A stretch of DNA of 63,920 bases from a virus (lineage: Duplodnaviria; Caudoviricetes): IMG/VR virus record IMGVR_UViG_3300044464_000029, positions 1 to 63,920 of that record; one strand, 5' to 3'. The position numbers and the translations under genes were made by a program. The notes beneath the pieces are model-generated. The model did no database searches, was not told the origin of the DNA, and saw only the letters and a list, made by a program, of their open reading frames with translations. Shown in pieces: positions 184 through 22,991 of the stretch (positions are counted from its first letter, which is position 1; every line of letters starts with the position of its first letter).

Positions 184-1113
184 TGCAAACAATAATAAAT
201 TCAGTTTTGCCTTGAAATCATTCATTCGTAGTTGTTTCCAATCCATTCATTATCTTCGAGATCAATGTGCGGCATTGGGTGGTTCATTTCACTAACACAG
301 TAATTGCCAGTTAAACGTGGATGTTCCATTCCGCACTCTGGTTCTGCGTCGTCGAGTAGTACCTGTGGGGTTTTTTGAGTTAGCATTTCAACCTTTGTTA
401 GGTGGTTAGGTCGATACCAATCAGGACAGTTACGCTTATGAAGTATGTATCCGTTCTTCGCCTTCGAATGGCAAATCAGGCACTTCATTCCACAACTTCC
501 TAACTTCTTCTCGACGGAGACTGAGCTTTTCAGCGACTTCGACAATTCGCTGTTGTGCCAACAGATTTTGATCTAGCTCAAATCGTCTACGTGCCGCCTT
601 TATGTATAACTTAACAAATTGTTCCATACCTAGCGTCATTTGAACACCTTAAGAAATAGTAGATAACCAATCAAAAGTGCTACTGGCCATGCCATAGTTT
701 CAATGATATCCATTTTTATCCTTTGTTAGTTGAGCAACACACCACAGGAACGAGTCCTGTAGCATGCAATTCAACTAAACCTCCAAAATACTAGGATTAT
801 AGTAATCCAAGTCAGTATACCGACACAAAGTGCCCAAAGCCATTTTTCTTTAGAAGCTGTTGGACGACCTATCAATGATAAAGCCATCAAAAATATAAGG
901 GTGAAAGTAAATATGATGTTGAATTTGATAGCATTATTCATAATCATGAATGGTAAGCAGCTTCGTCATCTATGTCATCAATAACTTTTAGCACATCAAG
1001 CACGGGTACATCGAGCAATGCTGCCATATAGGCAATCAAGCGTTCTAGCTCTCGATCTACAAATTTCATGTGTCCTTCGTACATTTCTTTAATCATGTGC
1101 TTTTTAACATCGT

Positions 1114-1872
1114 TCATCCGATTGCCCTACGTCCGCCACCTAGTCCAGTCTGACCAATGTTGGCACTACGTCCGGCAGACTGTCCAGCACCGTAAGCCGT
1201 ACCACTAGAAGCACGAGCATTCATATCAATGCGCCGGGTATGCGGATGATCGACATTAAACGCAGCCATGACGGCTACTTCTCGTGTCTTCAATACAAGC
1301 TCCATGCCACTACCTGTGTGGCTCTCACTGACATCGGACTTCGCTTTGCTATATGCTTTAATAACCCGATCAACTACAGTATCAACATAGCCAACTACAA
1401 ATGAACTATTGAAGGTTTTACCATGCATATGGGCAGGCTTATCCGCAGTAACCAGCGAAGTTGCCATCTGAATGTTCAAAGAACCATACAACATGAGAAT
1501 TTTCTCAATGTCACTTGGATAACCATAGATCTGCATGATGGTCTTAGGATCTGGCTCACGCTGTATACCATTGCGACGGCCAGGCTTCCTTTGCGACATA
1601 CCCATCATAATACCATGAGCACCAAACGTCTTAACAATTCCCCATAGAAGTGTGACCTTGGAATTAATGTACGGTGTCCCAATGGTGAATCTAACTGAAG
1701 TGACTACTTCAGGCTCCGCCTGTCCGGCATTCAGCATAGCTTGTTCAATGCCATGCTTGGCCATCAACGTAGTCATCATTTCTACAATGGAGTTACGCTC
1801 TTCCATCGTAGTAGCAGAGTTTTCAGCCTTTGCCATCATTTTTTGTAGAATTGTCAACCATTTATCGTCCAT
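1114..1872 (-). CDS. DUF2786-domain protein
   Basis: N-terminal KMMAKAE...EERNS...LMAKHGI pattern and C-terminal AYGAGQSAGRSANIG typical of the family; RBS GGAGG. Confidence 0.7.
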   Translation of the reverse strand: MDDKWLTILQKMMAKAENSATTMEERNSIVEMMTTLMAKHGIEQAMLNAGQAEPEVVTSVRFTIGTPYINSKVTLLWGIVKTFGAHGIMMGMSQRKPGRRNGIQREPDPKTIMQIYGYPSDIEKILMLYGSLNIQMATSLVTADKPAHMHGKTFNSSFVVGYVDTVVDRVIKAYSKAKSDVSESHTGSGMELVLKTREVAVMAAFNVDHPHTRRIDMNARASSGTAYGAGQSAGRSANIGQTGLGGGRRAIG

Positions 1873-4095
1873 TTATTTCCTCCATTTTATAGTTGTATAA
1901 CAATGTACTGGTGCTAGACCAGTACAAAGCAATGCAACTACTTGTTACGATTTTCTATCCAGCGAAGATAGCTCAACTTTTTAAAAATATATGGAGTAAT
2001 CAACGGCGAAAATATACGCCAATTGTATTCGTATTTTTCTGGATCTTCCTTGTAAAGAATAGCCCAAGCAATAAAGCCGAGAACTTGATCAAAAGCAAGA
2101 ATCCAAATGATTAACAAGATTACATCATCGCTCATGCTCGAATAGCTCTCTGGTAATAGAACCGATAAATCAGCATGATCGTACGTACGATAACCAGTAG
2201 TTGTAAGGCAAACATCCATACAAGCAAGAATGCCACATGTGGATGCATTACCGCTCGATTCGCTGACCAAAAGTTGGCGAACCAGGCCGCATATCCTTGA
2301 TGTGCGTGTACAAACTAGCAGGCGATAGCTTAGCCGAGGTAATACTACCCTTGGTCATGCCCTCATACGCACGAGTCTTCTTCTTCTGTGACTTTTTCTG
2401 CTTGGTACCGAACTTCCGACTCATTATTTATTCCAATCCTTCTGTTGTTTTATATGTGTGCCACGAGATCGTAAAAGCATTTCTAGGTTATCGCAACGCA
2501 ATTCCGCTGCTATTTGCAACTTACTTCTAGTTTCGGCATCTACGGCTACCTTCGCGCTGCCATCATTGGCACAAGAAGCGCAAGTTTCCGGTAGATGTCC
2601 ACGTCGAGAGGGAATTGCTTTCATTTCTTGACAATGTTTACAGAAAAAGAACGACATTTTCTCTTCTGTTACAAAAACTTCCATTTTAGTTTTCTCCTTT
2701 ATGTTTGAATAAATAGCACGCCTCCGGTAGGAAACACCCCACAGGAAGCATACTAGCTATTCAATTACGCAGTTGAAACTCAAAGAGGCAAGTACGCCAG
2801 TTGTCGTCATATCCACCGAAGTCTCGGCTTGGTGATAGTCGAGCCTGAATGACATCACGATCCCAGGGAGAATTACGCAATTCCCAAACTCCCATGGCAA
2901 GTGTACCATTCTTCAAATAGTCTTGCAATGCCTCTTCCAAGAATCTCTTACCAACTTTTCTAACTACTGCCCCCGTGCTTCTACTAACTGCAACGTACGT
3001 TTCCATTTTATTCCCCTATTTTCAATATTTTTAGGCGTCTTCTGTAAGAGCCATCAAAAGCTGGTAACCGTTCAGTTACAATTTTAGCCGTGAAACGTTG
3101 TCCAAACATTAATATAGCTGCACTATCCATTAATTCAGTCAATCTGAACCGATCTACCATACCGCCAAGAATAAGTTCTAGACTCTTTTTGTAGTGTACT
3201 GGGTTCATGTCAGAAATAATATGATAATATTCTGCATATTTGTATGGTCCATCATCTAAGACGATCAAAGTTAATGCGATATAGTATCTTTCTGTACTTC
3301 TGAATCTTTTTATTTCACTTTTGCTTACTTCGAATTGATATTTTCCGTCTGGTATGTACATTTTCACATCCCTTTTAGTAGTACAACACCACACAGATAC
3401 TAGATCTGTATGATGCAATTCTACTAAAGCGGTGGTTCTTCCCATTGTGGTACTACGTTATGTACAGTAGAACCAGGATCATTCAAATCGTCTAATTCAT
3501 CATTGATGTACTTGTCTATTTGCGAATCTTTGTAACGTTCACAAGCACTCATGTATGCGTCGAATCGATGTAGAAGATTCAAACAGCCATTATAAAAATC
3601 ATTGTCTGTCGTATTGCTACCAGGTCCATTTTCGCTAGAGAATTTCCGCAACAATACACGAAACTCAGTTGGAGTGAGCATCATTGCGTCTGAATGGAAC
3701 ATGATTTCAGTCATTTTTAGGTAAGATCTCCCAATCTAGTTTGATTACTAGTCTACGCTTAACGATCGTGTCAACTGATTTACCAGCTATTCCATCTATC
3801 CAGGCAATAGGACAAGTAGGATCTGCTCGATAGGAATTACGGTGCATATTTTCTTTCTTTGACCAGTGTTCCGCTGCATGCTGTGTTTCAAAATCTCGGA
3901 TCGGACTGTTAAAAATCCAAGCATCTTTTTCACTTATTTCTGCGAGGATATCGTCTTCATTCCACACCGAGTATTCATATTCAACTTTTGCATCTGGCAT
4001 ATTAAATCCTTGTCCGTTTTGTTATGATTGTACCGATGAAGACACAAATGTCCAATTCATGTCATCATAGCTGCAATCACTGGCTGTCTACAAAA

Positions 4096-4124
4096 ATCAT
4101 AGCGCACTTAAACACGTTCCGCAA
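4096..4124 (-). promoter_or_regulatory. Housekeeping-sigma promoter
   Basis: TTGCGG-17 bp-TATGAT on minus strand with upstream A/T tract. Confidence 0.6.
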
Positions 4125-7100
4125 GATACTCAAAAATTTATTTCTCCGTACAGTCACTGAGACTCCACCCTGCCCAAAGCCTTTTCTCGCGTCAGCGACC
4201 CGTACAGCAGGCGGCAAGCCCTATCCTGTGGGGTTCCACCAGCTACACCGTCAAGATCAACGATCTTGTTAACAGAACCCCACAGGTATGAACTAAGCCT
4301 TATTACCTGTTACATACTCAAAATGATTGCAAGCAAAGACATAACACTGAGTCCAGGTACATCCTCTATCTTGGGCGCTCTGTGCTGCATTCATAACTGT
4401 CTTGGTTAGTTCACTGAATTTGTAACCAAATGAAAGAGGTGTCTTACCTTCAATTTCTAGTAGTTGGTCAATAGTCCAACCAAGCTTTTCTAACACCCTG
4501 CCAATGAGACAGCTAGCACAACCATTATCTACATAGTAACACTTTGGCCACGAACGTTCGCCGTGTGCTATTCTTTGATAGGTAAAGTCACTACCTGCTT
4601 CATCAACAACTTCACGCATAATCCCTAAAACGTGCTTACACTCTTCAATAGTTTCATCACTAAACTTTGCCATTTTTTCTCCTACCTGTTACTTACTTTT
4701 TCAACGACTTCTTGGTCCCATTCTTCGTCAAGACCACCTACGCGAACAATAAGTCTACCGCGTGTTAGGATCTCTTGTACCTTGCCCCATGTCTTACCAG
4801 ACTTGACCATTGATCCTACATAGATCCTGTCCATTTTGCTCCTTATTAATAGTACATTACCACACTGGTGTCTAAACCAGCATGATAAAACACTATTAAA
4901 GCATAATAAGACTGCGCCACCTAATTTTATTGCACTTGGTGCAAGTCTTTTCTTGGTAGTGACAGATCACGTTCCATACCTTTATTTCGCTCCATTTTGT
5001 GTAATTATGCCAACAGAACATTAATATGTCCTCCGTGTCTTGACTTTACCACACTTAATACATTCTTTCTTTTGATAAAGATAAACTATGCTTAAGTCAG
5101 CAACAGGATCAAACCACTCTGTGTATTTATGCCAGCAAAACATTAATGCCTCCAATCACGATATCTACGAAAGAACAACCATAACACCCAATTTGGCGTC
5201 GAAATTATTATTCCATTGATTTTCTTCCAACTAATTTCGTCTTTCAATACTGCATGACCATTCTCTTCTGCGTATGACCAATGCAATCCGCGACTTATCA
5301 AATTCCAACGTGTTCGATGGAAATAATAGAATTTTTTAAGCAACGTAGTTTCCATTCTTGTCTACGTTCGCGAGCCGATGTCCGTCGACAAAGAATACGT
5401 AGTGTGTAAATGCTCTGTTCGTTTGGGTCTTGCGATCAACATTTTGTGCATTTACATTCTGGTAATAAACTTTTGGAACACCATTTGTATTCCATTCCAG
5501 TACAATGACCGCAGTATAGACATCCATTCGTTTGTGTTGACCATGCAGCGGTCCACCGGAAAAACGCATTGTTGAATAGGCAGGACCGCAATTTTTGATG
5601 TGTCTGGCTTCTGACTGTGACTCAATATAATCACCACAATCACAATTTTCCATACCATATTTACAGGACATTTACCACTCCAATATAGTTAGTTGTACAA
5701 CACAACGCAGGTGCTAGACCCACATCATGCAATGCAACTAAGTCCATTGCTTTGGATATGCTCCACCATTAATCAAATTTTCATCTAGTTGGTCAACCTT
5801 GCTACATAGTTCATAAGCGGCATTGTGCCATTCACTATCACTGTTAGTATTCTTCATTACTCCCAGAAGCTGCCTGATCTCTTCGAGCGTTTCTGTTGAA
5901 TTGAACTCAGCCATATTCTATATTCTTCCTCAGCTCTATAATGTTTCTGCCATAAATCCTTTATACCACTCATAGTGGTCATACCACAAGTACACAAATG
6001 CATAGTAACTCGGCCGAATAAGCCTACCTTTTTGACTGACACGAAATGTTCGTAAGCGGCCGTGTGCCACTCGTCTGGAATAAAACCCAAAAGCCTTACT
6101 CCTATCTATTAGATATCCAACACAACACAGGCATTGCTATCCTGTATCATGCAAAACATCTAAGCTAATCTCAACGCTTCCTGCTGGCCGTACACAGCAA
6201 GCGTGACATGCCAGCGATCATTCTCATGACGCCAACCTTCACTCCAACTGTCTTTGACATCATCACAGTATTGGATGAAGTCATTCAAAAATCGATGTGC
6301 ATGTCCATTCTTTAGTTCTACTTCAGTAAAGGTGAACTTAGCAATTACCTTTTCCATCACGGTACCGGATCATTCTTCGGCCATTCTCCGCTGGCTTGTA
6401 GCCGTTCTTTTTCTGCACGTCGTTCTACAGCTTCATTTTGTAGCTTCTGATTGCGCAAGAATTTTTCTTGTGCTTCATTAAGCTCTCGCTGTGAACGTTG
6501 TTCGTCTGTCTCATCAGCCACGATCAATTACCTCTGCATTTCTGCGGTTGCATTCTTCAGAAGCTTCTTCGTAAGTGTCAAAATCCACAAACACATAGGC
6601 AGTACCCTCTTCTATGTGTTTAGCCCACTCACTGAACAATGCTACACGGTACTTATCTGTTGGATTCGAAATGCTATTTTGAAAAAGAATCACATACGCA
6701 TCTGCTACTCCGTATGTGATTCTAGCCATTGGTATCTCCAACGTAAACATCTTGGGAGGTAACTGTTTCACTGAAGTCGACTTCTTCATATTCCATCGCT
6801 TCAGTAAAGAGATCCATTCTCTCATCATGACTAAGATCTCCCGTACACTTGATTGCTTCTTCAAGCGTCATATTAGGGTAATGTTCCTGATCGAACGGTA
6901 CCTTAGTAACAAGAGTAGCCGTTCTACGAATAACAATTTCCTTCTTTGTTTCCATTCTTATAACCTCTTCAACTTCGTTGTGATGTTTCCAAGGACAATT
7001 ACACCCACATCGGATGCAATCAGTACAGAAACACACGGGCCAGTCTGCATAATCCATTTTATCTCCTAACTAATAGTACATGACGGCACCCGCAGACACA

Positions 7101-8690
7101 AAGCCCACAGGTGCCATCAAATGCTATTAGTCAATACATCGTACATAGTGGTCGAGCGCCATCAACGCCTTGATATTATCAAAAACCAGGCAAGATGAAT
7201 GTCCTAGTTGGTCAATAATTTCAAAGCGAATGGCAGCCAAGAAATCATCTTTATCGAGGATAGTACCAGTACTAGCAAAGGCAGCGAATTGTATTCCTCG
7301 TACGCCACCATCAGCCCACCAAGATGCAATTTCCCGAGCTACTTCGGTGTGAATAATTTCCGTGAAGTATGGCCGCTTTATCCAGTGATCAACTTGCCTA
7401 ACAATGAACTCAGACGTATTGTCCATTGGACAAGGCTGCATATACTCTGGTGGTTTGTGATTCCCAGTACCACGCATTAGTTTCGACCTTTCCAGTTGAT
7501 AAAGAAGCTAGCAAACAACGCTCCGACGATAGCCATCAAAGCCAACATCGGACAGGCTATTGTCCAAAACTTATCCATTTTACTCCTCCTTATTAGTCGT
7601 ACATGAATGCGCTAGTTTACACTAGCACAAACAAATGCGGCTAATAATCAGACAATGCTACAATTTGCTTAAATGTATTCTCTGCCAACTTGTACACATC
7701 CCATGGCTTTCCATGAAAGGTATCAAATTCCACTTGCATCAAGGCCGCTTCAATGATCCTAGCAGCATCGCTTTCATCTACTCTAATAGTAATGCTCTTT
7801 GCCATTTTATTCCTCCATTATTAGTTATGCATGACGCTTCCCGAAGAACCCCACAGGAAGCATCAAACGCAACTACTCCGGCTGCACTAATACTTGTTTG
7901 ACCAAGTCTTGCGATGCTGTCTCATGTATGCCCTGCATCCACTGCATGACGTCGGGCCAGGATAGCCCCCGTTCCAGCCCGCTAGTACCATTACGCCAAA
8001 GTATTACCAGTGTGAATTTACCCACCGATTCCCTCCAATTGTTTCAATTCTTTAGGACTCTAATGTAATATCATCCACTGGGAACAGTTAGCAATGTAAT
8101 GAATCTCTGCTACACGCATGAGATCGCTAACACGTCCAGTTGTGATATTCAATTCGTAGTACGACAACGCAAAATCAAATTCTCTTTTGTAAATTACGTA
8201 ACCATTAGGCATTCTAGAAGTATAAGACTTCTTTCCGCCCAAAGGCTGGTAAGCGAACCATTCAATACCGTTGTCTATCACTTTGTCATCCTTTGGTCGA
8301 ACAACACGACACAGGATTGATCCTGTATCATGCAGAACGGCCAACTTTATTCTTGGTAGCTGTGTCCTTCAATCTTACCATGCCCACAACGGATGGCAGC
8401 AGAACCACCAGGACAATTGTACGGCACTTCGATGTTCATTACTACCATAATAAATTGATGTGCGTTCACTTGGCTATGTGCGGAACATCGAACTTCTTTA
8501 GTTCCGCCACTACACCACTTAGTTACTGTTTCTGCCATTACTACTAAACTCTCTTCCACTTAGTCAGTACAATACCGAGGGCAACCAACAGTCCACCGGT
8601 AACTACTGCACCAAGGTACAAAATTGCAGCTTCCATTTTATTTTCACCTTCTTACTTTAACTGTCAAAAACTTGACACAATTAGGTAAGC

Positions 8691-12459: not shown

Positions 12460-13413
12460 TTAGTCTCCGTGGATCAAGGTCCATTCGTACGTGTGTTCGT
12501 CAAACTGTACTACATTGTGCGGTGCGCCTATACCATCCCCATATGGATTGATTTGGTGAATAGTATGGTTAATTGGGTTGTTTGTTGGAATTGCGAAAAT
12601 TGAGATGATTAGTAGAATTAAGATAGTTAAATCACTCCTTAGGTAGACATTCGACATATGGGATTTTAATGTTGAATTCTGCCCATATGTCTGATGAGTA
12701 CCTAATTGTTGGTTTTCCACTGTATGTGATTCTTACCGCATTTGCACACTGTTTGTGCAATAATGTCCTTTTCGTACTGCTCTTCGATGAATAGGGCTGC
12801 ATCTTGCAATCCAGCCCTATAGGCACTATTTAGTGCGTTTGCAGCTTCTGTGGCGTTTTTCTTTGTTGTCCCTCCTATGACAGTTCCATTCATTTGTCCG
12901 TTTATGTACCTATCTACGTAGTATTGGCCATATCGACCGCCTACTTCGTATTTGGTACCTTCTGTGGGCTTTGTCATGAAATAGGCCCTTTCTAGGTAGA
13001 CATAATCTGGTATGTCCGTTTTGAGCGGACATACCAGATTAAATCCGACTAGCTGCTACCTGTGGATGCTTCCATGTACGTTTTGGCTTCATTCTTGCTG
13101 TTTGCCTCATGTACTAGTGTAAGAGACATTTCCTTGCTATTGTTCGAATTGAGTGTAATCTTACTTACACGCCATTTTTGACCAAAAGACTCCCTAATTG
13201 CCATGTATTTATCAATTACGAAGTATTCGCCTTCTGTGCTGTTTACCATGCTACTGTCCCCTTAAGTACTACCTTGTCTGCCTTTGTCCTAATAATTGCA
13301 GACTTAAGCAGAAAATGTAGATTGTCCGATTCCTGCTCATTTGCCCAATTCCTTAGGCTTGTATTAGCTTTTCGGATTTGTGACATTTTGAGCACTACCC
13401 GGGCCTTGTGCAT
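12460..13413 (-). other. Small hypothetical early genes (12460-12720, 12702-12977, 13049-13249 and an ORF starting at 13413)
   Basis: Packed minus-strand ORFs with RBS. Confidence 0.55.
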
Positions 13414-13649: not shown

Positions 13650-13748
13650 TTTTGATCTCCAAATCGATGTCCAAAATGTGTTTGAAACTCTCCACTTAGG
13701 TGGATTTAACCACAGTGGGCCATTTTGACCCACTATGACTAGAACGAC

Positions 13749-14366
13749 CTAAACGTTCACTTTGTCCTGAATGTCGGGCTTTGTGGTATGAGGTACTGTT
13801 TTGCGAGGTGCACGCTTTACGGGTGGCTTTGTCTGTTTCTGTGGGGTTTGTCCTGAAACGACCGCTTCTTCCGGTTTGTCCACTTTTGTCGGCTTTGCGT
13901 TAGTTGACACCTTTTGAATCAGAATCGCCGTTGCTAGTGCAGTTGGGATATCTACGATGAATGGGTAGAATAAGGCAACAATCCAATGCTGTCCGTTTCT
14001 GACCGTTAACTCCCAAATGTGGAAGCCTGAAATCCCGAATGCTACTATAGCGACAAATCCCAACCCAAACCAGACTAAACCCTTCTCAAACTTGTTTTTC
14101 GGGGTATAGTAGGCAATTAGGTGAACTGTGCCAAAGAAGACAATTGTGGGCGCAACCGACGTAATGATCGGTTCCATGTTAATAGCCCCAGATCGGACAT
14201 TTGCATACGTACTGTATGCAAGCCCCAAAAGCATGACCACGAATGCGTACCTTTTCCCCTTTTGTAGCCTTGTGAGGGGAATTTTCCGCTTAGCCTCTTT
14301 TGTCCGATTAAACATTGTCTTGGCCCTTTCAGGTAGGGATGGCACAAAACGGACAGTTTCGTCCAT
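13749..14366 (-). CDS. DUF2637-like multi-pass membrane protein
   Basis: Four hydrophobic segments, VAIVAFGISGFHIWEL...YPFIVD motif, basic Pro-rich tail. Confidence 0.6.
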   Translation of the reverse strand: MDETVRFVPSLPERAKTMFNRTKEAKRKIPLTRLQKGKRYAFVVMLLGLAYSTYANVRSGAINMEPIITSVAPTIVFFGTVHLIAYYTPKNKFEKGLVWFGLGFVAIVAFGISGFHIWELTVRNGQHWIVALFYPFIVDIPTALATAILIQKVSTNAKPTKVDKPEEAVVSGQTPQKQTKPPVKRAPRKTVPHTTKPDIQDKVNV

Positions 14367-14599
14367 TCTGCACCATTTCTACCTGAAATGAGTGACATAC
14401 ACTATTTAGGTATTAATGTCCGATTTGCCAGCTTCGAGGTTCCCCTGTCAGCTCTGGCTCCCCGTTTTCGTTCTACTGCAAGTATACCATGTGCAAAATG
14501 GACATTATTATAATAAGCCATATACTGCACTGTGACTTGAGTCACATTCTGGTACAGGTAATATGTCCAGATTTAGGCTGCCATGCCTGATTTGTCATA

Positions 14600-14953
14600 C
14601 TAAAGGTGGTGAACAGAGCTAGGTGCCTCGATTTGGTACAGAAGATCTTGTATCCGACTTACCCATGCATATGCATCCAGATAGGTGAAATGCAGACTAC
14701 ACCAGACATAGAGTGCAGATCCGTCTTTTGCTGGTAAATGGTACGAAAGCTCCGAATCGTACTTCTCATACGGATTGTTGGTCACATGCCACAAAATCGT
14801 GACATGTCCGGTTTGTCCGATGAAGAAGTCATTCGACTGATTCGTAGCGCTTCCATCCCAACTGTCCCCATAACCGACAGGAAGTGCCGAATCGTCCATA
14901 ATGTCCGAATGGTAAGCCATTTCCGACATGTCGTGGATTTCGTTATTGTCCAT
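14600..14953 (-). CDS. Hypothetical protein (IR cassette 1)
   Basis: ORF with AAGGGG RBS enclosed by IR pair. Confidence 0.7.
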   Translation of the reverse strand: MDNNEIHDMSEMAYHSDIMDDSALPVGYGDSWDGSATNQSNDFFIGQTGHVTILWHVTNNPYEKYDSELSYHLPAKDGSALYVWCSLHFTYLDAYAWVSRIQDLLYQIEAPSSVHHL

Positions 14954-15032
14954 TTTTGCCCCTTTTGATGAGGCATGGCAGTCTAAAACTAGACATATGT
15001 AGATTTAAGTGGACATGTCCGCTTTTTCTAGT

Positions 15033-15299
15033 TTAGCGGGTTTGTCCGATTTCCCACAGATTGTCCATCTCTGTGGTAGTATGGGTGGGAATGTAATCTT
15101 GATGCCAATTGTACCGCATTGCGTGTAACATGCACAATTGCAGCCATCTGACCGTTACATCTACCTCTGCGTCGGTTTTGGCTCCGCCGTCTGGTTCGTG
15201 AAACTCTGTAATGATTCCGACGCAAACGCCCTGATTGCACGTTTTAATGTCATTGTCCAAATCGAACGGTGTGACCAAAGTTCCGATGTTAAGAGCCAT
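15033..15299 (-). CDS. Hypothetical protein (IR cassette 2)
   Basis: ORF with AAGGGG RBS enclosed by IR pair. Confidence 0.7.
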   Translation of the reverse strand: MALNIGTLVTPFDLDNDIKTCNQGVCVGIITEFHEPDGGAKTDAEVDVTVRWLQLCMLHAMRYNWHQDYIPTHTTTEMDNLWEIGQTR

Positions 15300-15386
15300 T
15301 TTGTCCCCTTTGATGAGGACATGCCCACATAGATCTACATATGTCTTACATGTACGGATATAAGGAGATATGGGCTAGATGTCCGA

Positions 15387-15644
15387 TTAGTTCTTTACGA
15401 TCCAGAATGTGATACCAGGTCCGTAAAATATGAATGCCCATTGGTCCGGATCATCCATAATGCCCTTGTCGCCGTAGATGTCGTTAATGTCCGAAATAAC
15501 TTGGATCCATTCTGGCATATTAGAATCATCCCGGGCAGTTAGGGCAAGGTTGCGCAAAATGCGCATACCCTTACGAAATGTGACATCTCCGGCGAAAGCG
15601 AAATCTTCATAGCCATCGTGCTCAAAGCCAACAGACCATGACAT
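15387..15644 (-). CDS. Hypothetical protein (IR cassette 3)
   Basis: ORF with AGGGG RBS enclosed by IR pair. Confidence 0.7.
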   Translation of the reverse strand: MSWSVGFEHDGYEDFAFAGDVTFRKGMRILRNLALTARDDSNMPEWIQVISDINDIYGDKGIMDDPDQWAFIFYGPGITFWIVKN

Positions 15645-15853
15645 AATAACCCCTGTCCGATTTTGTCAGCCCATATCCCCATATATCCGTACATGTCCCC
15701 CTCCCCCTATATGTCTGAATTTTGCCCATATAGTCGAGAATGCTACAGGGTCCGCCGATTCCTACCAAAAGTCCCAATTCCTTAGGACTCTTATAGGGGT
15801 TCCGCTCGGTATGCACCTTATGTGCACCCTGTGGGGTCTTATCCCTTTCGCCA

Positions 15854-15877
15854 CTTTTGAGTTCTTAAGTTACGATT
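15854..15877 (-). promoter_or_regulatory. boxA-like leader element (second copy 17892-17915)
   Basis: AATCGTAACTTAAGAACTCAAAAG vs AATCGTTACTTAATAACTAAAAAG (21/24 identical), each between a candidate -10 (TAGACT 15926-15931; TAGAAT 17996-18001) and the first cassette. Confidence 0.5.
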
Positions 15878-16055
15878 GTCCGCTTTGGGCGGGACTGCCC
15901 TTTTTCTTTTTTCTTTTTTCTTTTAAGTCTAGCACGGACGATGTCGGAAATTCCCGACTTATCATGCTAAACCGGACATTCTGAAAGTGTGAGTTAAATC
16001 ACACCCAAAATATCATGATTTAGGAGCTTTAGACCGTCATGTCCGGATTTATCAA

Positions 16056-16241
16056 TTACAGTGCGATTTGGGCGTTACGTCGAATTTGGTACATTTTGAC
16101 CACAATGTCCAATTGGCGGTCAATGACGTTAATGTGCGGTTCGTTCATTATGCACAGAAAGTTCTGCTTGTCCATTTTGTCCAAGAAGTCCATCATGCGA
16201 CGAAACTTCCCGATTGTGACTCTTTCTGCTGCTTTTTCCAT
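16056..16241 (-). CDS. Hypothetical protein (IR cassette 4)
   Basis: ORF with AAGGA RBS enclosed by IR pair. Confidence 0.7.
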   Translation of the reverse strand: MEKAAERVTIGKFRRMMDFLDKMDKQNFLCIMNEPHINVIDRQLDIVVKMYQIRRNAQIAL

Positions 16242-16336
16242 TTTTAGTCCTTTGTCCGATTTGGTCGGACATGACGGTTTAGAACTACTAAAGCATGAAT
16301 TATCCTGGTTTAGAAGGCTATGTCTGGTTTGTCGTT

Positions 16337-16552
16337 TTAGTCCTGTGAGCGGTTTTTGCGCCTTTCATCCCGAATTAAGACAAGTGCCCGGTATGTGGCC
16401 AAAACGTCGTCTTCGTCCTTAATGCCGGATTTGACTACTTCGTCGTAAATGGCCTCATTTGTCCAAGTTGAGAGCAATCGGCGTGATATGCCCGTATAGA
16501 CCTTCATGTGCACTTTTGGGGTGGATGTCCAGAGATATGGCAATGTTACCAT
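16337..16552 (-). CDS. Hypothetical protein (IR cassette 5)
   Basis: ORF with GGGAG RBS enclosed by IR pair. Confidence 0.7.
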   Translation of the reverse strand: MVTLPYLWTSTPKVHMKVYTGISRRLLSTWTNEAIYDEVVKSGIKDEDDVLATYRALVLIRDERRKNRSQD

Positions 16553-16646
16553 TTTAGCTCCCTATGTCCGATTTATCCAGACATAGCCCTTTAGACCAGG
16601 ATAATTCTGACTTACTACCTTTTGTCCGGCATGTCTGATTTGCGGA

Positions 16647-16799
16647 TTAATTCACTATAAGAGTGGAAGTGTCCGACATCGCCCAGATAAGCAACATAAT
16701 GAGTGCTATGTTGAACAATGCGGCAATTATTACTTCTACGTGCTTTGTCGCGAATGTCTGAATTGACCAGGTACGCACGTGCTTGCCGTGATATGCCAT
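16647..16799 (-). CDS. Small membrane protein (IR cassette 6)
   Basis: MAYHGKH...; one hydrophobic helix; AGGGG RBS; enclosed by IR pair. Confidence 0.65.
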   Translation of the reverse strand: MAYHGKHVRTWSIQTFATKHVEVIIAALFNIALIMLLIWAMSDTSTLIVN

Positions 16800-16911
16800 G
16801 GTATTCCCCTTTTGTCCGATTTTGGCTGTTTTGGCAGACATGCCGGATAAGAGGTAGTAAGTCTTTAATGTGCCACATGTACGGATATAGCAGGATATGT
16901 CCGATTTCGTC

Positions 16912-17148
16912 CTACTGTGTGATGTTTTGGAACGATTCGGCCGCATTCAGCCAGCTATGCGAAGAATGCCACCATTTGTCCGTTCTGTCCTCTGAGTCCC
17001 AAATGACCACATAGAACCCATTGCCCATATTGTCGCATATGTCCAATTTGACCACTACGACCGTATTGTCCGAATTGTAGTAGTGTGGCGCAAATGCCAC
17101 GATCTGCCCGTATTTCTCCATTTGCGCAATAACATCCAGAATGTCCAT
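16912..17148 (-). CDS. Hypothetical protein (IR cassette 7)
   Basis: ORF with AGGAG RBS enclosed by IR pair. Confidence 0.7.
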   Translation of the reverse strand: MDILDVIAQMEKYGQIVAFAPHYYNSDNTVVVVKLDICDNMGNGFYVVIWDSEDRTDKWWHSSHSWLNAAESFQNITQ

Positions 17149-17243
17149 CTTTGTACTCCTATGTCCGATTTATTCGGACATATCCTGTTAAATCCGTACA
17201 TGTCCAGAATTATCCAGGTTTGGGAGGGTATGTCCGTTTTATA

Positions 17244-17531
17244 CTAGACGCAGCCGATTCGCCACGGTTCGACGGATATAACACGACTTTCCGGGACAAT
17301 CTCCCATACAAGCCGCAATTCCGACTCAAGTGGTGCATCTGGGTACATTTGGAACGCTTCGCGCATTTCGACCATATCGCCCATATTGGGCAGATCAGTC
17401 ACAATGTAGACAAAGTTGGATTTTCCGTCCATAACGGACATTTCGTATTCTTCGAAGAATTCGGTAAAACCCACCGTTTCTCCGATTTTTACGGTATATC
17501 CGTTATTGTCCACAAATTCGCCAAGTTTCAT
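17244..17531 (-). CDS. Hypothetical acidic protein (IR cassette 8)
   Basis: Start MKLGEF at 17531 after GAGGAG; enclosed by IR pair. Confidence 0.7.
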   Translation of the reverse strand: MKLGEFVDNNGYTVKIGETVGFTEFFEEYEMSVMDGKSNFVYIVTDLPNMGDMVEMREAFQMYPDAPLESELRLVWEIVPESRVISVEPWRIGCV

Positions 17532-17632
17532 AATAACTCCTCTTATGTCCGATTTGTCGGACATACCCTCTCAGACCCGGATAATTCCGGTAAGACCTCC
17601 ATGTACCCTATAACCGACATGTCCGTTATTCC

Positions 17633-17818
17633 CTAGTTTGTCGGATTTAGCAGTTCTGCTAGCTCAATTCGGGCTTTTTCCTCTATTTGCGACATTTCCT
17701 TGTAAGTCGGGCATGTCGCCTTTTTACACCCCGAATGGGTCCGAATGTGGACATTTACCTTATCCACTAGGTTTTCCCAGATTATCACCTTTTTGGCGGT
17801 TTCTCCACGAAATACCAT
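17633..17818 (-). CDS. Hypothetical protein (IR cassette 9)
   Basis: Start MVFRGE at 17818 after GGGAG; enclosed by IR pair. Confidence 0.7.
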   Translation of the reverse strand: MVFRGETAKKVIIWENLVDKVNVHIRTHSGCKKATCPTYKEMSQIEEKARIELAELLNPTN

Positions 17819-18448
17819 GTTAACTCCCTCTATGTCCGATTTAGTGGACATGTCGGTTATGGGGCACATGTGGCCTTTGTCCGATTTTCCTCTTTTTAGT
17901 TATTAAGTAACGATTCGGGGGAATTTCACCGGTTTGCCGGAATTTTCCGGTATTTCCGTTTTCCACCTATTGTCTTGTTTTTCTGTTCTGCCTTAATTCT
18001 ACAGGGGCCCTATATGGGCCATATGTCCGATATAGGGTATATATCATGACATAGTGGGTCAAAAAATATACCCCTATGTACTACTATATACGGCATATCG
18101 GACATATACGGGCACAAGGCCCAAATGGGATGTTGATCTGTGACACAGGTCACAGTGTGGGTAGTATGTCAACATATAGTGCACATAACGGACATGTCGG
18201 ACAGGACATGTCATGATAAATCCGGACATACCGGACTGTGATGCTCGTCACAGTGATTTGGGTCACAGACAAAGTGGACATTTAGTAAATATTAACTATA
18301 TTATGTTATAAGAGGATAAAAAGGACATTTGGTACGTAAGAAGTAGATCAGAGTGGTAAAAAAGTGTTCGAAAGTTGACACTAATCATATATACGTTTTC
18401 CAAAATTTTATAAGGCTTTTCAGAAAGGTGTTAGAGACTTGACATGTG

Positions 18449-20549: not shown

Positions 20550-22991
20550 ATGTTAACTGGTGGACGAGCGGTCTCTAAAGAAAAGTATTTTGAGCATATT
20601 GGCTATAAGCCACATGAGAAGCAACAACTGTTTCATGATAGCAACGCAAGATTTAAGATTCCTGTATGCGGTAGAAGATTCGGAAAACTTCTCGATGTAA
20701 ATACAATAATTCCAACAGTTAATGGTATGATTAAGATTGGCGATTTGTCTGTTGGAGATCAAGTATTTGATGAGAATGGTTTAGTTTGTAATGTTATAGG
20801 TGTAAGTGAAATACAGCACCGCGAAGATGTATTTGAGTTAACGTTCGACGATGGCAATACATTAGTTGCACATGGTGAACATGAGTGGCTAACATATGAC
20901 AAGAAAGCTCGAAAGACACGTGATTCTGTCGATAGCTTACATGCATCTGATAGTCGTAGAAAAATTGTACCCCCCGCAGTTAGAACTACAAACGAAATTA
21001 GAAACACATTAATTGCACTAGGAGAAACCAATCACGCAATTGAGCTGACTAAGCCAATTGAGTACCCAAAGCAAGATTTGCCTATAGATCCATATTTGCT
21101 AGGTGTTTGGCTTGGTGATGGTAGCACTAATGATGGCGTAATTACCTTGCCTGATTATGACGAATGGATCTTAAGCAAGATTCAAGATCGTGGTTATGAA
21201 ATTACAAGAACACAAAGCAAAGATCGTTGTCCGCAATGGCGTGTACTTGGCTTACGAACCTTGTTAAAAGATAATTTCTTACTTGGCAACAAAAGAGTTC
21301 CAGTTGCTTACTTGTATGGTAGTGTGGAACAACGTAGAGATCTACTACATGGCTTGATGGATACAGATGGTACAGTAGGAAATAATCATGTGGATTTTGA
21401 TAATACTAATGAAAAACTTGCTGCGGTTGTTGATTACTTGATTTGCTCTCTTGGCGGTCGAGTGACTAGATCAAAGCGCATTGGTAAGCTGTATGGTGTA
21501 GAAAAGAAAATGTGTTACAGAGTGCATACCGGAAACATAATTGATGTGTTTAGTTTGCCTAGAAAATTAGAAGCCCAACAGAAATTACCATTCAGAAATC
21601 GTTATTATAGATTCATAAAATCAGTTGAGCCTGCCACACCAAGACTGATGCGTTGTATTGCTGTAGATTCTCCTTCAAATTTGTATTTAGCTGGCAAAGC
21701 TTTCATTCCAACTCACAATACATACATGGGAGCAAGAGAGGCTGAACCTCTCTTGATGGTGCCGAATAAGCACATATGGATCGTTGGGCCAACTTATGAT
21801 CTTGGAGAGAAGGAATTCCGGGTCATTTGGCAAGATATGATTGTAAAACTGGGTATGGGTCGCGAGAAGCAAATTCGTAAAGCATTCAACAAACGTGCTG
21901 GCGATATGTTTATTGAATTCCCCTGGAATACTAGAATTGAAGTGAGATCTGCCGATCGACCGGAAACTTTGGTCGGTGATGCTTTAGATTATGTAATTAT
22001 GGCAGAAGCTGCTAAGCATACTAAAGAAACCTGGGATCGTTATATTAGACCAGCGCTAGCCGACCGCAGAGGTTCCGCAACCTTCAGTACGACACCCGAG
22101 GGTCAGAATTGGATTCATGATCTGTGGCAGCTTGGTCGTAACCCACTCTTCGATGATTATGAATCGTGGAGATTTCCATCTTGGGAAAACAAAGTAGTTT
22201 ATCCTGATGGTAGAAACGATAAAGAAATAATTCTACTTGAACGAACAATGCCGCCAGAATGGTTCTTACAGGAAATTGCGGCTGATTTTACTAGCTTCAT
22301 GGGTAAGATTTACTCGGAGTGGGATGAAATAACACATGTTAGGCCACATAAATATAACCCACTCTGGAAAAATTATATAGCATTTGACTGGGGTTTCGTT
22401 AACCCAATGGCCGCAGTAGAATTTCAAGTTGATCCAATGGATCGCATTCATGTTTGGCGTTTGCATTACAAGACACATACCAGACTTGAAACATTCTTAC
22501 ACCAAATGCAAGACAGAGAACAGCCTGAAGGTTATAAAATTGATCTTTGTTTCGGAGATGCTGCGGATCCTGAAGCAGTAGCAACAGTGTGCGCAAGGTT
22601 CGCTCCTTGCATTGCTGATCCGCTTTCAAAGTCAAATTGGCGAGAAGGCATAGATTTAGTAAAAAGTTTTCTCTCGACCCGTACCGTAGGGTACCTCGAC
22701 GAATTCGAAACACCGCTAGACGAGCCATGGCTATTTGTAGACCCTGCCTGTGGGGATTTGATCCGCGAGTTCAATAACTACCGGGCGGTTGCACCTAGTT
22801 CAGGTAAGCCGAGAAACCCGAGAGAAGACGCCCAGAAGTATGATGACCACGCACTAGACGCATTGCGCTACGCTTTAATGCATATTTTCAAACTTGGTGC
22901 AACCATGAGCTTGAGTGAAGTTATGATGGATCAGATAATGGAAGATAAACCAGCCACAGGTTACTTTACCTCAAATAAGGAATTTGTGTGA
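20550..22991 (+). CDS. terL: Terminase large subunit with intein
   Basis: Walker A CGRRFGK/T split by intein; TTPEG coupling motif; nuclease DWGF and DDHALDALRY motifs. Confidence 0.93.
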   Translation: MLTGGRAVSKEKYFEHIGYKPHEKQQLFHDSNARFKIPVCGRRFGKLLDVNTIIPTVNGMIKIGDLSVGDQVFDENGLVCNVIGVSEIQHREDVFELTFDDGNTLVAHGEHEWLTYDKKARKTRDSVDSLHASDSRRKIVPPAVRTTNEIRNTLIALGETNHAIELTKPIEYPKQDLPIDPYLLGVWLGDGSTNDGVITLPDYDEWILSKIQDRGYEITRTQSKDRCPQWRVLGLRTLLKDNFLLGNKRVPVAYLYGSVEQRRDLLHGLMDTDGTVGNNHVDFDNTNEKLAAVVDYLICSLGGRVTRSKRIGKLYGVEKKMCYRVHTGNIIDVFSLPRKLEAQQKLPFRNRYYRFIKSVEPATPRLMRCIAVDSPSNLYLAGKAFIPTHNTYMGAREAEPLLMVPNKHIWIVGPTYDLGEKEFRVIWQDMIVKLGMGREKQIRKAFNKRAGDMFIEFPWNTRIEVRSADRPETLVGDALDYVIMAEAAKHTKETWDRYIRPALADRRGSATFSTTPEGQNWIHDLWQLGRNPLFDDYESWRFPSWENKVVYPDGRNDKEIILLERTMPPEWFLQEIAADFTSFMGKIYSEWDEITHVRPHKYNPLWKNYIAFDWGFVNPMAAVEFQVDPMDRIHVWRLHYKTHTRLETFLHQMQDREQPEGYKIDLCFGDAADPEAVATVCARFAPCIADPLSKSNWREGIDLVKSFLSTRTVGYLDEFETPLDEPWLFVDPACGDLIREFNNYRAVAPSSGKPRNPREDAQKYDDHALDALRYALMHIFKLGATMSLSEVMMDQIMEDKPATGYFTSNKEFV
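20688..21719 (+). mobile_element. Class 3 intein with LAGLIDADG endonuclease (344 aa), Leu at position 1
   Basis: LLDVNT...; W in HEWLT, C in MRCIAV, T in THN; +1 Thr; LGVWLGDG and GLMDTDG motifs. Confidence 0.88.

What the first reader, a model, noticed from the sequence alone, without database searches (positions are those of the whole stretch)
14561..17870. Nine tandem early genes, each enclosed in its own 25-33 bp inverted repeat: candidate rRNA-style processing into end-paired mRNAs
Seen: every gene from 14600 to 17818 is flanked by a gene-specific inverted-repeat pair (coordinates in features). Within each operon neighbouring pairs lie within about 13 nt of each other or overlap. Folded as minus-strand RNA, each pair closes the whole gene into a loop. 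Imperfections are G-U wobbles plus mismatches in a fixed register: in six of nine cassettes a C.A or U.U, then 2 bp, then an A.C or U.U, with 12-14 bp on the gene side (e.g. 16609-16637/16835-16863 and 17208-17236/17558-17586). Cassette 9 keeps the first mismatch, cassette 3 has one U.U near the second position and cassette 1 is off-register. The register is kept although arm sequences differ, which points to selection on structure. Established: RNase III cuts dsRNA with a 2-nt stagger and releases 16S/23S rRNA from leader-trailer stems. Inference: cutting at the mismatches would release each gene as a monocistronic mRNA whose ends stay paired by about 13 bp, exonuclease-resistant and possibly ligatable. 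I know of no described phage array like this. Arms of cassettes 5/8 and 3/7 resemble each other, suggesting flanks are reused with different cargo genes.
Basis: partly seen in the sequence, partly recalled or inferred. Interest (0 to 1): 0.93.

Follow-up and report, generated by a model that had tools for sequence, protein, structure and literature searches.

The report
RNA stems enclosing phage early genes
In this uncultured phage and its relatives, each small early gene lies between two flanks that pair into a 30-base-pair RNA helix with a fixed central defect, probably so that one long message is cut into single, end-clamped messages; no paper I found describes this layout.

Summary
Nine inverted-repeat pairs of 25-33 nt each enclose one minus-strand gene at 14561-17870. 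Simulated sequence gave 0.02 such pairs per window.

It is a family trait. All 8 related IMG/VR loci with enough upstream DNA carry arrays. A second phage group has the same layout with unrelated arm sequences.

The helix is 29-30 bp and two-fold symmetric: 13 bp, C.A, 2 bp, A.C, 12-13 bp. Stray non-Watson-Crick pairs outside the centre are mostly G.U on the mRNA strand: 65 against 18 A.C in group 1, and 24 against 1 in group 2. This points to selection on the sense RNA.

The RNase III reading is plausible and geometrically coherent, but untested. No RNA run holds this phage, the host is unknown, and the window has no RNase III gene. One caveat: the central C.A pairs would be G.U in antisense RNA.

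New points:
- Both arms carry CUAA.
- A conserved pre-RBS motif competes for the 5' arm.
- Cassettes are also DNA-level units of gain, loss and cargo swap.

This scan has already noted the same layout on other phage genomes. Eight literature searches found no description.

The parts
17892..17952 (-). Leader of array A. It holds a small hairpin (17935-17952) followed by a conserved 24-nt element (17892-17915), about 20 nt upstream of the first 5' arm.
   Evidence: the element recurs at the head of arrays or sub-arrays in 9 of 10 group-1 loci. There are 14 copies at 5 or fewer mismatches; one of them, 14402-14425, lies behind the array. One search lists the hairpin. The resemblance to rrn boxB/boxA is recalled, not tested.
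17600..17870 (-). Cassette 9: 5' arm 17846-17870, ORF 17633-17818 (61 aa), 3' arm 17600-17624.
   Evidence: The helix is 25 bp with one C.A. 24 of 25 pairs are in the MFE fold.
17204..17590 (-). Cassette 8: 5' arm 17558-17590, ORF 17244-17531 (95 aa), 3' arm 17204-17236.
   Evidence: The helix is 33 bp with C.A, 2 bp, A.C and two G.U. 31 of 33 pairs are in the MFE fold.
16875..17203 (-). Cassette 7: 5' arm 17174-17203, ORF 16912-17148 (78 aa), 3' arm 16875-16904.
   Evidence: The helix is 30 bp with U.U, 2 bp, A.C. 28 of 30 pairs are in the MFE fold. Contigs of run X3 carry about 590 other letters in its place.
16609..16863 (-). Cassette 6: 5' arm 16835-16863, ORF 16647-16799 (50 aa, hydrophobic), 3' arm 16609-16637.
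   Evidence: The helix is 29 bp with C.A, 2 bp, A.C. 27 of 29 pairs are in the MFE fold.
16297..16607 (-). Cassette 5: 5' arm 16577-16607, ORF 16337-16552 (71 aa), 3' arm 16297-16327.
   Evidence: The helix is 31 bp with C.A, 2 bp, A.C and one G.U. 29 of 31 pairs are in the MFE fold.
16013..16298 (-). Cassette 4: 5' arm 16266-16298, ORF 16056-16241 (61 aa), 3' arm 16013-16045.
   Evidence: 27 of 33 pairs in the MFE fold. In an X3 contig 16055-16231, which is the ORF, is replaced by 160 other letters while the arms and the RBS region stay.
15854..15900 (-). Leader of array B: hairpin 15887-15900 and the same conserved 24-nt element at 15854-15877.
15348..15696 (-). Cassette 3: 5' arm 15668-15696, ORF 15387-15644 (85 aa), 3' arm 15348-15376.
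   Evidence: 28 of 29 pairs in the MFE fold. An X5 contig joins 15345 directly to 15697, so the whole cassette with both arms is absent there.
14991..15346 (-). Cassette 2: 5' arm 15317-15346, ORF 15033-15299 (88 aa), 3' arm 14991-15020.
   Evidence: 24 of 30 pairs in the MFE fold. The end of the 5' arm can also pair locally with the Shine-Dalgarno sequence itself.
14561..14998 (-). Cassette 1: 5' arm 14968-14998, ORF 14600-14953 (117 aa), 3' arm 14561-14591. Its 5' arm overlaps the 3' arm of cassette 2 by 8 nt.
   Evidence: 15-17 of 31 pairs in the MFE fold. Its mismatches are off-register.
12998..13046 (-). An 'empty frame': a local hairpin of the same kind, with the same gene-proximal motif, a U.U at the first central position and a 7-nt loop in place of a gene.
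   Evidence: (pair I16).

Best explanation
The leftward early transcript of this phage folds so that the two flanks of every small gene pair with each other across 200-380 nt. This forms a 29-30 bp helix that starts about 25 nt before the start codon and about 11 nt after the stop codon.

The helix is two-fold symmetric: 13 bp on the gene side, a C.A mismatch, two A-U pairs, an A.C mismatch, then 12-13 bp on the outer side. Both strands read CUAA at the centre.

Inferred: the host's double-strand RNase (RNase III, a symmetric dimer that cuts with a 2-bp stagger) binds each helix and cuts on the 5' side of the mismatched A on both strands. That would release each gene as a single-gene message whose 5'-phosphate and 3' end stay clamped by 13 bp, which would shield it from exonucleases.

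The same flanks make each gene a portable DNA module, because whole cassettes and cargo genes are swapped between related phages.

Shown: the helices, their symmetry, their conservation and the wobble bias on the sense strand. Inferred: the cutting, the enzyme and the benefit.
For: 1. Nine of nine ORFs in 14.56-17.87 kb are enclosed, against 0.02 pairs expected by chance.

2. Arrays of 6-15 cassettes occur in all 8 relatives with TerL at least 73% identical and at least 5 kb of upstream DNA. They also occur in a second group (L032, L041, L042, L044, L046, L049) whose arms are unrelated in sequence.

3. In 70 anchored helices, C.A occupies position -10 in 47 and A.C occupies position -7 in 53. 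U-A and A-U lie between them (58 and 52 of 70). The centre of the helix is at -8.25 and the dyad of the motif is at -8.5.

4. With a strand-neutral finder, interior non-Watson-Crick pairs outside the centre are 65 G.U, 18 A.C and 29 other on the mRNA strand (p = 2e-7). In group 2 the counts are 24 G.U, 1 A.C and 4 other. The flanking sub-helices are more stable as sense RNA than as antisense in 51 against 3 of 70.

5. Cognate arms pair at 98% of 18 variable positions. Non-cognate arms pair at 54% (4,830 combinations).

6. All nine helices appear in the MFE fold of the 3.4-kb sense RNA.

7. Known biology:
- RNase III cuts long-range mRNA duplexes of 10-36 bp, up to 505 nt apart, with a 2-bp stagger in B. 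subtilis (PMC11780869, section 24 read).
- T7 early mRNA is matured and protected by RNase III sites (PMC8708148, passages).
- A natural pre-16S stem with an A-C pair next to the cut is cleaved by Aquifex RNase III (PMC3074117, passage).
Against: - There are no RNA data of any kind.
- The host is unknown, so its RNase III preferences cannot be compared.
- In mapped B. subtilis sites the positions next to the cut are paired in over 90% (PMC11780869, section 24). Cutting at mismatches would therefore be atypical. Some internal motifs let RNase III bind without cutting, or limit it to one strand (PMC3074117, passage).
- The central C.A pairs would be G.U in antisense RNA. The full helix is computed to be more stable as antisense in 50 of 70.
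- The cassette set was found by searching for complementarity. The pairing percentages are therefore partly circular. Only the wobble asymmetry, the geometry and the 9-of-9 coverage are free of that.
- Cassettes and cargo move as DNA modules. Co-inheritance of arms can therefore keep complementarity for some time without selection.
- The window, which is 84% complete, has no RNase III or dsRBD gene.
Confidence: 0.5

Rival explanations
1. The helices form in the mRNA but are not cut. They act as structural clamps. They would insulate each cistron, bring stop and start together for ribosome recycling, hide intergenic RNA from Rho or RNase E/Y, or license translation only once the 3' arm has been made. 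The last idea arises because the end of the 5' arm otherwise pairs locally next to or on the RBS.
For: - The helix begins just outside the expected ribosome footprint. The median distance is 25 nt from arm to start codon and 11 nt from stop codon to arm.
- In 71 of 81 cassettes the nascent end of the 5' arm forms a local hairpin with the 5' UTR, against 43% for shuffled UTRs. In 31 of these the pairing touches the Shine-Dalgarno sequence.
- Central mismatches can block RNase III cleavage (PMC3074117, passage).
Against: - A fixed, centred, two-fold symmetric defect is not needed for a passive clamp.
- A 12-13 bp outer half beyond the defect would be superfluous.
- The local hairpin is not clearly enriched in group 2: 11 of 20 against 37% in shuffles.
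Confidence: 0.24
2. This is a DNA-level feature only. The repeats are the borders or scars of a cassette-shuffling mechanism, comparable to recombination at PeSL motifs in T4-type phages, and have no role in RNA.
For: - One relative lacks cassette 3 exactly from arm to arm.
- Another has 263 extra letters exactly between cassettes 8 and 9.
- The cargo of cassette 4 is replaced inside unchanged arms.
- 87 cassettes carry 49 cargo clusters in different orders.
- Arms and cargo are uncoupled. Mean arm identity is 0.36 for same-cargo pairs and 0.32 for different-cargo pairs.
- The motif before the RBS is repeated at the start of the 3' arm, so each ORF sits between short direct repeats.
Against: - It does not explain the G.U excess on one strand.
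- It does not explain the centred C.A/A.C motif, or its recurrence with unrelated sequences.
- It does not explain the fixed distances to start and stop codons.
- I found no recombinase among the 20 larger proteins scanned.
- None of the 15 joints shown (of 22) is of a strand-change kind, so no inversion was seen.
- Arms differ between cassettes, unlike transposon ends.
Confidence: 0.1
3. The conserved gene-proximal heptamer and its local palindrome upstream of each RBS are binding sites for a phage or host DNA-binding regulator (operator or roadblock sites), or the arms are promoters. The long-range complementarity would then be a by-product.
For: - The heptamer occurs 34 times against 5 expected, and 33 of the copies lie in 5.4-18.5 kb. 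It clusters in the divergent control region at 18.0-18.3 kb.
- The 3' arms of cassettes 5 and 8 score as sigma-70-like sites, 9 of 12.
Against: - Only 2 of 9 3' arms look promoter-like.
- A protein site does not need 20 further private, complementary base pairs.
- Group 2 lacks the heptamer but keeps the helices.
Confidence: 0.08
4. The functional helices form in antisense (+ strand) transcripts, where the two central pairs are G.U.
For: - The full helix is more stable as antisense in 50 of 70.
- Terminator-like hairpins with T runs lie on the + strand at 15887-15910 and 17935-17961, at the far end of each array. A + strand promoter-like site lies at 14499-14526.
Against: - Outside the centre the antisense helices would carry A.C mismatches where the sense helices carry G.U.
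- 12 of 117 central pairs are U.U, which is A.A in antisense.
- The helices are positioned relative to sense-strand start and stop codons.
Confidence: 0.04

Closest known systems
Leader-trailer (processing) helices around 16S and 23S rRNA in bacterial rrn operons, cut by RNase III
   Same: Sequences flanking a long RNA pair over hundreds of nucleotides into a helix of 17 to about 44 bp that loops the RNA out. Several such units follow each other in one transcript. A leader with a hairpin and a conserved box precedes them (PMC10250234, abstract and passages).
   Different: Here the loops are translated protein genes of 50-117 aa. There are 6-15 units in a row, the arms are private to each unit, and the helix has a fixed central C.A/A.C motif. 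Cutting is not shown. The likeness of the leader box to boxA is recalled only.
RNase III sites in phage T7 early mRNA (R0.3-R1.3; R1.1 as the model)
   Same: A phage early polycistronic RNA with a double-strand element between every pair of genes. An internal non-Watson-Crick region lies at the cut. The role is maturation and protection of mRNAs (PMC8708148, passages).
   Different: T7 sites are local hairpins between genes. Here the two strands of the helix lie on either side of the gene, so both ends of the message would stay paired. This phage also has local hairpins of the T7 kind further downstream.
Long-range intramolecular mRNA duplexes cut by RNase III in Bacillus subtilis
   Same: Duplexes of 10-36 bp with up to 505 nt between the two cuts and a 2-bp stagger (PMC11780869, section 24).
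   Different: Those are scattered single cases in host mRNAs, mostly paired at the cut. They are not an array that brackets every cistron.
PeSL regulatory cassettes of T4-type phages
   Same: Short conserved motifs between small ORFan genes in hyperplastic early regions that mediate modular shuffling (PMC2839356, abstract).
   Different: PeSLs are direct repeats of a promoter plus a terminator hairpin. Here the repeats are inverted, differ between cassettes and pair across the gene.
5'-3' UTR pairing of icaR mRNA in Staphylococcus aureus
   Same: The two ends of a bacterial mRNA pair, and RNase III is named in the paper (PMC3868564; search listing and start of the abstract only).
   Different: It is a single host gene, and the pairing covers the RBS to repress translation. 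Here the RBS lies outside the helix.

Membership tests
RNase III processing helices (rrn leader-trailer, T7 sites, long-range mRNA duplexes) | A double-stranded RNA of about two helical turns or more, formed by the flanks of the RNA to be released | tested here: met
   The helices are 29-30 bp. All nine are present in the MFE fold of the sense RNA.
RNase III processing helices (rrn leader-trailer, T7 sites, long-range mRNA duplexes) | Selection on pairing in the RNA strand (covariation, wobble pairs) | tested here: met
   G.U against A.C is 65:18 and 24:1 outside the centre. There are 3-6 pair types per variable position, and cognate pairing is 98% against 54% for non-cognate arms. Caveat: the set was ascertained by complementarity, and the centre reads as G.U in antisense.
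RNase III processing helices (rrn leader-trailer, T7 sites, long-range mRNA duplexes) | Two cuts on opposite strands with a 2-nt 3' overhang | not testable with these tools
   No RNA run holds the stretch. The symmetric motif with 2 bp between the mismatches fits, but it is geometry only.
RNase III processing helices (rrn leader-trailer, T7 sites, long-range mRNA duplexes) | Positions next to the cut are usually base-paired | tested here: inconclusive
   If the cut lies at the motif, the nucleotide on the 3' side of each cut is mismatched in 47-53 of 70 helices. This is atypical for host sites (PMC11780869, section 24), but it has a precedent in the Aquifex pre-16S stem (PMC3074117, passage).
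RNase III processing helices (rrn leader-trailer, T7 sites, long-range mRNA duplexes) | Processing depends on the rnc gene | not testable with these tools
   The host is unknown. The window has no RNase III or dsRBD gene.
PeSL cassettes of T4-type phages | Direct repeats of a strong sigma-70-like promoter plus a terminator stem-loop | tested here: not met
   The repeats are inverted and private to each cassette. Only 2 of 9 3' arms are promoter-like at 9 of 12 matches, and no sense-strand terminators are listed.
PeSL cassettes of T4-type phages | Gain, loss and replacement of ORFan genes at the motifs between close relatives | tested here: met
Integron gene cassettes (attC) | A local imperfect palindrome (attC) at the 3' end of each cassette, with an integrase beside the array | tested here: not met
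   The two arms lie on opposite sides of the gene, and adjacent arms of neighbouring cassettes are not complementary. No integrase was found among the 20 larger proteins scanned; that scan was not exhaustive.
Miniature TIR transposons | The same terminal inverted repeats in all copies, plus target-site duplications | tested here: not met
   The arms differ between cassettes. The conserved part is at the inner ends, not the outer ends. The clean cassette-3 deletion joint has no shared letters (both = 0).

The most novel reading that the evidence does not exclude
This would be a widespread, undescribed phage mRNA grammar. Every host-takeover gene is written as a self-contained module whose private 30-bp helix carries a symmetric C.A/2 bp/A.C mark. 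The host RNase III cuts at that mark and releases single-gene messages with clamped ends. The same arms make the gene a plug-in DNA cassette that can be swapped between phages without losing its expression context.
Probability: 0.4. Interest if true: 0.9.

Novelty: new variant of a known kind. Interest (0 to 1): 0.8.

Why it matters
If the helices are cut, this is a third way to organise a polycistronic message, beside local RNase III hairpins (T7) and rRNA processing stalks. It would give bacteria-style mRNAs whose two ends are paired, a form so far known only from single cases.

It would explain how phages keep dozens of fast-evolving ORFan genes individually expressed and exchangeable.

It offers about 100 natural, orthogonal helix pairs with a defined central motif as a ready test set for RNase III specificity and for synthetic operon design.

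The layout recurs in unrelated uncultured phages, so it may be a common feature that gene-centred annotation overlooks.

Tried and rejected
RNA evidence. The look-up of sequencing runs listed no RNA holder. This says nothing about expression.

Cultured relatives.
- blastn of the region against 50,697 phage records gave no match.
- tblastn of TerL, DNA polymerase and portal gave identities of at most 28%, 34% and 30%.
- No cultured relative was found and no host could be named.

Known RNA families and tRNAs. The Rfam search gave one chance-level miRNA hit at E = 0.65. No tRNA was found.

Cargo function. 0 of 9 cargo proteins matched Pfam. 1 of 9 gave a weak PHROG match (head-tail adaptor, E = 2.6e-5), which I do not trust.

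Phage-encoded RNase III or dsRBD. None was found. The record is 84% complete.

Breakpoints. blastn against the IMG/VR relatives failed to resolve them, because the relatives are only 66-83% identical and mostly the junctions align.

The RNA-switch idea. The idea was that a local hairpin competes with the long-range helix and licenses translation. It is enriched in group 1 (71 of 81 against 43% in shuffles) but not clearly in group 2 (11 of 20 against 37%). I keep it only as part of a rival explanation.

Promoter reading of the arms. Only 2 of 9 arms fit.

Other readings. Integron, MITE and PeSL membership are rejected; see the membership tests.

boxA likeness of the leader. I could not test it. 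The boxA consensus is recalled, and the passages I saw in PMC10250234 give no sequence.

Rows dropped before counts:
- Of 89 candidate cassettes, 2 failed the stop-to-arm distance filter, leaving 87.
- Six are L032 and were treated separately, leaving 81 in group 1.
- 11 of those 81 could not be anchored on the gene-proximal motif and are left out of the position profile.
- One L032 pair that joins the arms of two neighbouring cassettes was left out.

Supplements of papers were closed. Tables S3, S5 and S6 of PMC11780869, which list the RNase III sites, might bear on the mismatch question.

Full report
WHAT THE WINDOW IS. The window is a whole IMG/VR virus record of 63,920 bp, classed as linear and 84% complete. 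It encodes a tailed phage. It has a large terminase, portal, protease and tape-measure protein on the + strand at 20.5-44 kb. It has a DNA polymerase, primase-helicase, exonuclease and helicase on the - strand at 44-64 kb. The stretch 0.7-18 kb holds small - strand genes that run away from a divergent control region near 18.0-18.4 kb, so I take them to be early and middle genes. No cultured phage is close: TerL is at most 28% identical, the polymerase at most 34% and the portal at most 30%. blastn of the region found nothing. The host is unknown.

No other pair of this kind occurs anywhere in the window. A strand-neutral finder of my own returns the same nine (at least 24 nt, at least 80% Watson-Crick, 100-700 nt apart). 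One hundred first-order Markov simulations of the window gave a mean of 0.02 and a maximum of 1. Each pair encloses one - strand ORF of 50-117 aa with a Shine-Dalgarno sequence. Neighbouring arms abut (0-11 nt apart) or overlap (2 nt; 8 nt for cassettes 1 and 2). Six of nine helices have mismatch, 2 bp, mismatch in the same register. The arms of cassettes 5/8 and 3/7 are 77-88% alike. In the minimum-free-energy fold of the whole 3,391-nt sense RNA all nine helices form.

THE GRAMMAR. Read on the mRNA strand, every junction has the same order:
- the stop codon;
- 6-38 nt, median 11, that are A-rich;
- the 3' arm, which begins with a conserved heptamer;
- 0-3 nt;
- the 5' arm of the next gene, which ends with the complement of that heptamer;
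- about 5 nt;
- a second copy of the heptamer, present in 61 of 81 cassettes;
- the Shine-Dalgarno sequence;
- the start codon, a median of 25 nt after the arm.

So the helix sits just outside the start and stop codons, and each ORF lies between two direct copies of the heptamer. The heptamer occurs 34 times in the window against 5 expected, and 33 of the copies lie in 5.4-18.5 kb.

IT IS A FAMILY TRAIT. A TerL search of IMG/VR gave 29 loci. All 8 loci with TerL at least 73% identical and at least 5 kb of upstream DNA carry arrays of 6-15 such pairs in the same place and orientation. These are L010, L011, L013, L016, L017, L019, L020 and L025. L015, with 3 kb upstream, has two. Loci without arrays mostly lack the upstream DNA. 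Four more distant loci with full flanks (L026, L034, L036, L037) have none. L032 (TerL 52% identical) has an array whose arms are unrelated in sequence. A search with its TerL found five further loci with such helices, 20 in all: L041, L042, L044, L046 and L049. The other 41 loci had none, and many of them are short.

THE HELIX IN DETAIL. I anchored 70 of the 81 group-1 cassettes on the gene-proximal motif. The other 11 lack a clean anchor and are left out.
- The helix runs from position -22/-23 to +6.
- At -10 the pair is C.A in 47, Watson-Crick in 18 and U.U in 4.
- At -7 it is A.C in 53, U.U in 8 and Watson-Crick in 9.
- Between them lie U-A (58) and A-U (52).

Both arms therefore read CUAA. 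The motif is two-fold symmetric, and its dyad (-8.5) coincides with the centre of the helix (-8.25). The layout is 13 bp, 4 positions, 12-13 bp.

In this group the register is kept because a tetranucleotide is conserved in both arms, not by structure alone. Group 2 settles the point the other way, though. Its arms have other sequences, yet 7 of 20 helices have a double central mismatch 2 bp apart. Three of these are C.A then A.C, with different bases between. Eight have a single central mismatch and 5 have none. The gene-side part is 11-17 bp.

RNA OR DNA? Sporadic departures from Watson-Crick pairing are the neutral indicator.
- With the strand-neutral finder, 86 helices in 10 loci have 65 G.U, 18 A.C and 29 other interior non-Watson-Crick pairs outside the two central positions on the mRNA strand (binomial p = 2e-7). 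The A.C and 'other' counts are inflated by central pairs of unanchored helices.
- In group 2 the counts are 24 G.U, 1 A.C and 4 other.
- Base composition does not favour G.U. On the sense strand A exceeds T and G only slightly exceeds C.
- The two sub-helices beside the centre are more stable as sense RNA than as antisense in 51 against 3 of 70.

Against this, the central C.A pairs would be G.U in antisense RNA, so the whole helix is computed to be more stable as antisense in 50 of 70. I read the centre as a designed defect in the sense RNA for two reasons. First, 12 of 117 central non-Watson-Crick pairs are U.U, a mismatch on either strand. Second, the helices are positioned relative to sense-strand codons. 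The ambiguity is nonetheless real.

Cognate arms pair at 98% of 18 variable positions, with 3-6 pair types per position. Non-cognate arms pair at 54%. Because the set was found by complementarity, this shows that the arms are private. It does not show that pairing exists.

HOW IT MOST LIKELY WORKS. RNase III is a symmetric dimer that needs about two turns of double-stranded RNA. It cuts both strands with a 2-bp stagger (PMC3074117 introduction passage; PMC8708148 passages).
- A 29-30 bp helix with a two-fold symmetric mark exactly at its centre, and 2 bp between the marked positions, is what such an enzyme would fit.
- The only symmetric pair of cuts with a 2-nt 3' overhang lies on the 5' side of the mismatched A on each strand.
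- The gene would be released with a 13-bp clamp joining its 5'-phosphate end to its 3' end.

Precedents exist:
- B. subtilis RNase III cuts long-range mRNA duplexes of 10-36 bp, up to 505 nt apart (PMC11780869, section 24).
- T7 early mRNAs are matured and protected by RNase III sites with internal non-Watson-Crick regions (PMC8708148, passages).
- The Aquifex pre-16S stem is cut although an A-C pair lies beside the cut (PMC3074117, passage).

Against the reading: host sites are usually paired next to the cut (PMC11780869, section 24). Some motifs allow binding without cutting (PMC3074117, passage). I have no RNA data; no RNA run was listed. The window encodes no RNase III or dsRBD, so the enzyme would be the host's.

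Downstream, between the larger genes at 0.7-8.3 kb, this phage has about a dozen local hairpins of 22-32 bp. They are G.U-rich and have a weak spot 9-12 bp from the base. One local hairpin at 12998-13046 is of exactly the cassette kind, with a 7-nt loop. The same element therefore exists with and without a gene in its loop.

THE DNA SIDE. I laid contigs of four metagenome runs on the region.
- An X5 contig about 93% identical joins 15345 directly to 15697. Cassette 3 with both arms is absent there, and no letters are shared at the joint.
- An X3 contig has 263 extra letters exactly between cassettes 8 and 9.
- The X3 contig has about 590 letters in place of cassette 7.
- The X3 contig has 160 other letters in place of the cassette 4 ORF, while its arms and RBS region stay.
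- No strand-change joint was among the 15 listed; 7 more were not shown.

Across the IMG/VR relatives, 87 cassettes hold 49 cargo protein clusters in differing orders. Arms and cargo are uncoupled. Mean arm identity is 0.36 for 101 same-cargo pairs and 0.32 for 3,640 different-cargo pairs. Arms up to 94% alike carry unrelated cargo, notably the first frame after the leader.

So the cassette, and within it the ORF between the two heptamer copies, are units of exchange. In effect this resembles PeSL-mediated shuffling in T4-type phages (PMC2839356, abstract), but the architecture is different. This does not replace the RNA reading. It means that the helix travels with the gene, or that the gene is dropped into a ready frame.

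OTHER PARTS. The nascent 5' arm can pair locally with the heptamer before the RBS. In cassettes 1 and 2 it pairs with the Shine-Dalgarno sequence itself. This occurs in 71 of 81 group-1 cassettes against 43% for shuffled UTRs, but in only 11 of 20 against 37% in group 2. It may be a placeholder or a switch, but the support is limited to group 1.

Each array starts with a small hairpin and a conserved 24-nt element. The window has copies at 17892-17915 and 15854-15877, and the element is found in 9 of 10 group-1 loci. Another first-stage note calls it boxA-like. I could not test that. The cargo proteins have no known family.

NOVELTY. Eight full-text searches found no description of gene-enclosing helix arrays in phage mRNA. 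This scan has already reported the same layout on other phage genomes (e1-6100174, e1-5922724, e1-6083415, e1-6095936, e1-5933338, e1-6108995, e1-5927092, e1-6191977). Those are unchecked AI notes without RNA data. They show recurrence. They are not independent proof.

The principle is known: flanks that pair to form a processing helix. The array on protein genes, the central motif and the double role as a DNA module are not known. I therefore class it as a new variant of a known kind.

VERDICT. The RNA-helix reading is well supported by comparative evidence. RNase III cutting is a coherent inference, which I put at about even odds. Interest is 0.8.

Noticed in passing
window 20550-22991 (+) and 51539-54811 (-): TerL is 813 aa, while the TerL of relative L032 is 486 aa and aligns to residues 5-800. 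The same three 'terminase' PHROGs (19299, 36964, 15) match TerL residues 18-396 and primase-helicase residues 392-760. Both genes probably carry an intein-like insert.
   Followed up: no
window 726-7875 (-), about 12 sites; also 13693-13755, 14327-14388, 59393-59444, 60808-60875: Local intergenic hairpins of 22-32 bp, rich in G.U on the sense strand, with a weak or mismatched spot 9-12 bp from the base. They look like T7-type processing sites between the larger genes.
   Followed up: partly
window 17892-17915 and 15854-15877 (-), with hairpins 17935-17952 and 15887-15900: A conserved leader element at the head of both arrays and of the arrays in 9 of 10 related loci. On the + strand the hairpins are followed by T runs and score as terminators pointing against the early genes.
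   Followed up: partly
window 18020-18300: The divergent control region is packed with copies of the heptamer in both orientations and holds a 24-37 bp hairpin at 18020-18108. It may be an operator cluster.
   Followed up: no
window 56844-57365 (-): A 173-aa protein with an Rv2179c-like 3'-5' exoribonuclease domain (E = 2e-13). It is the only RNA-nuclease-like gene I saw in the window.
   Followed up: no
window 17209-17236, 16299-16326 (-) and 16578-16605, 17558-17585 (+): The arms of cassettes 5 and 8 score as sigma-70-like sites (a -35-like hexamer, 16 nt, GATAAT; 9 of 12 matches) on both strands. The other seven cassettes do not.
   Followed up: partly
window 63337-63873 (-): An HNH endonuclease gene (Pfam HNH_3, E = 4e-11) beside the helicase gene. 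Other first-stage notes discuss homing-endonuclease effects here and at 41 kb.
   Followed up: no
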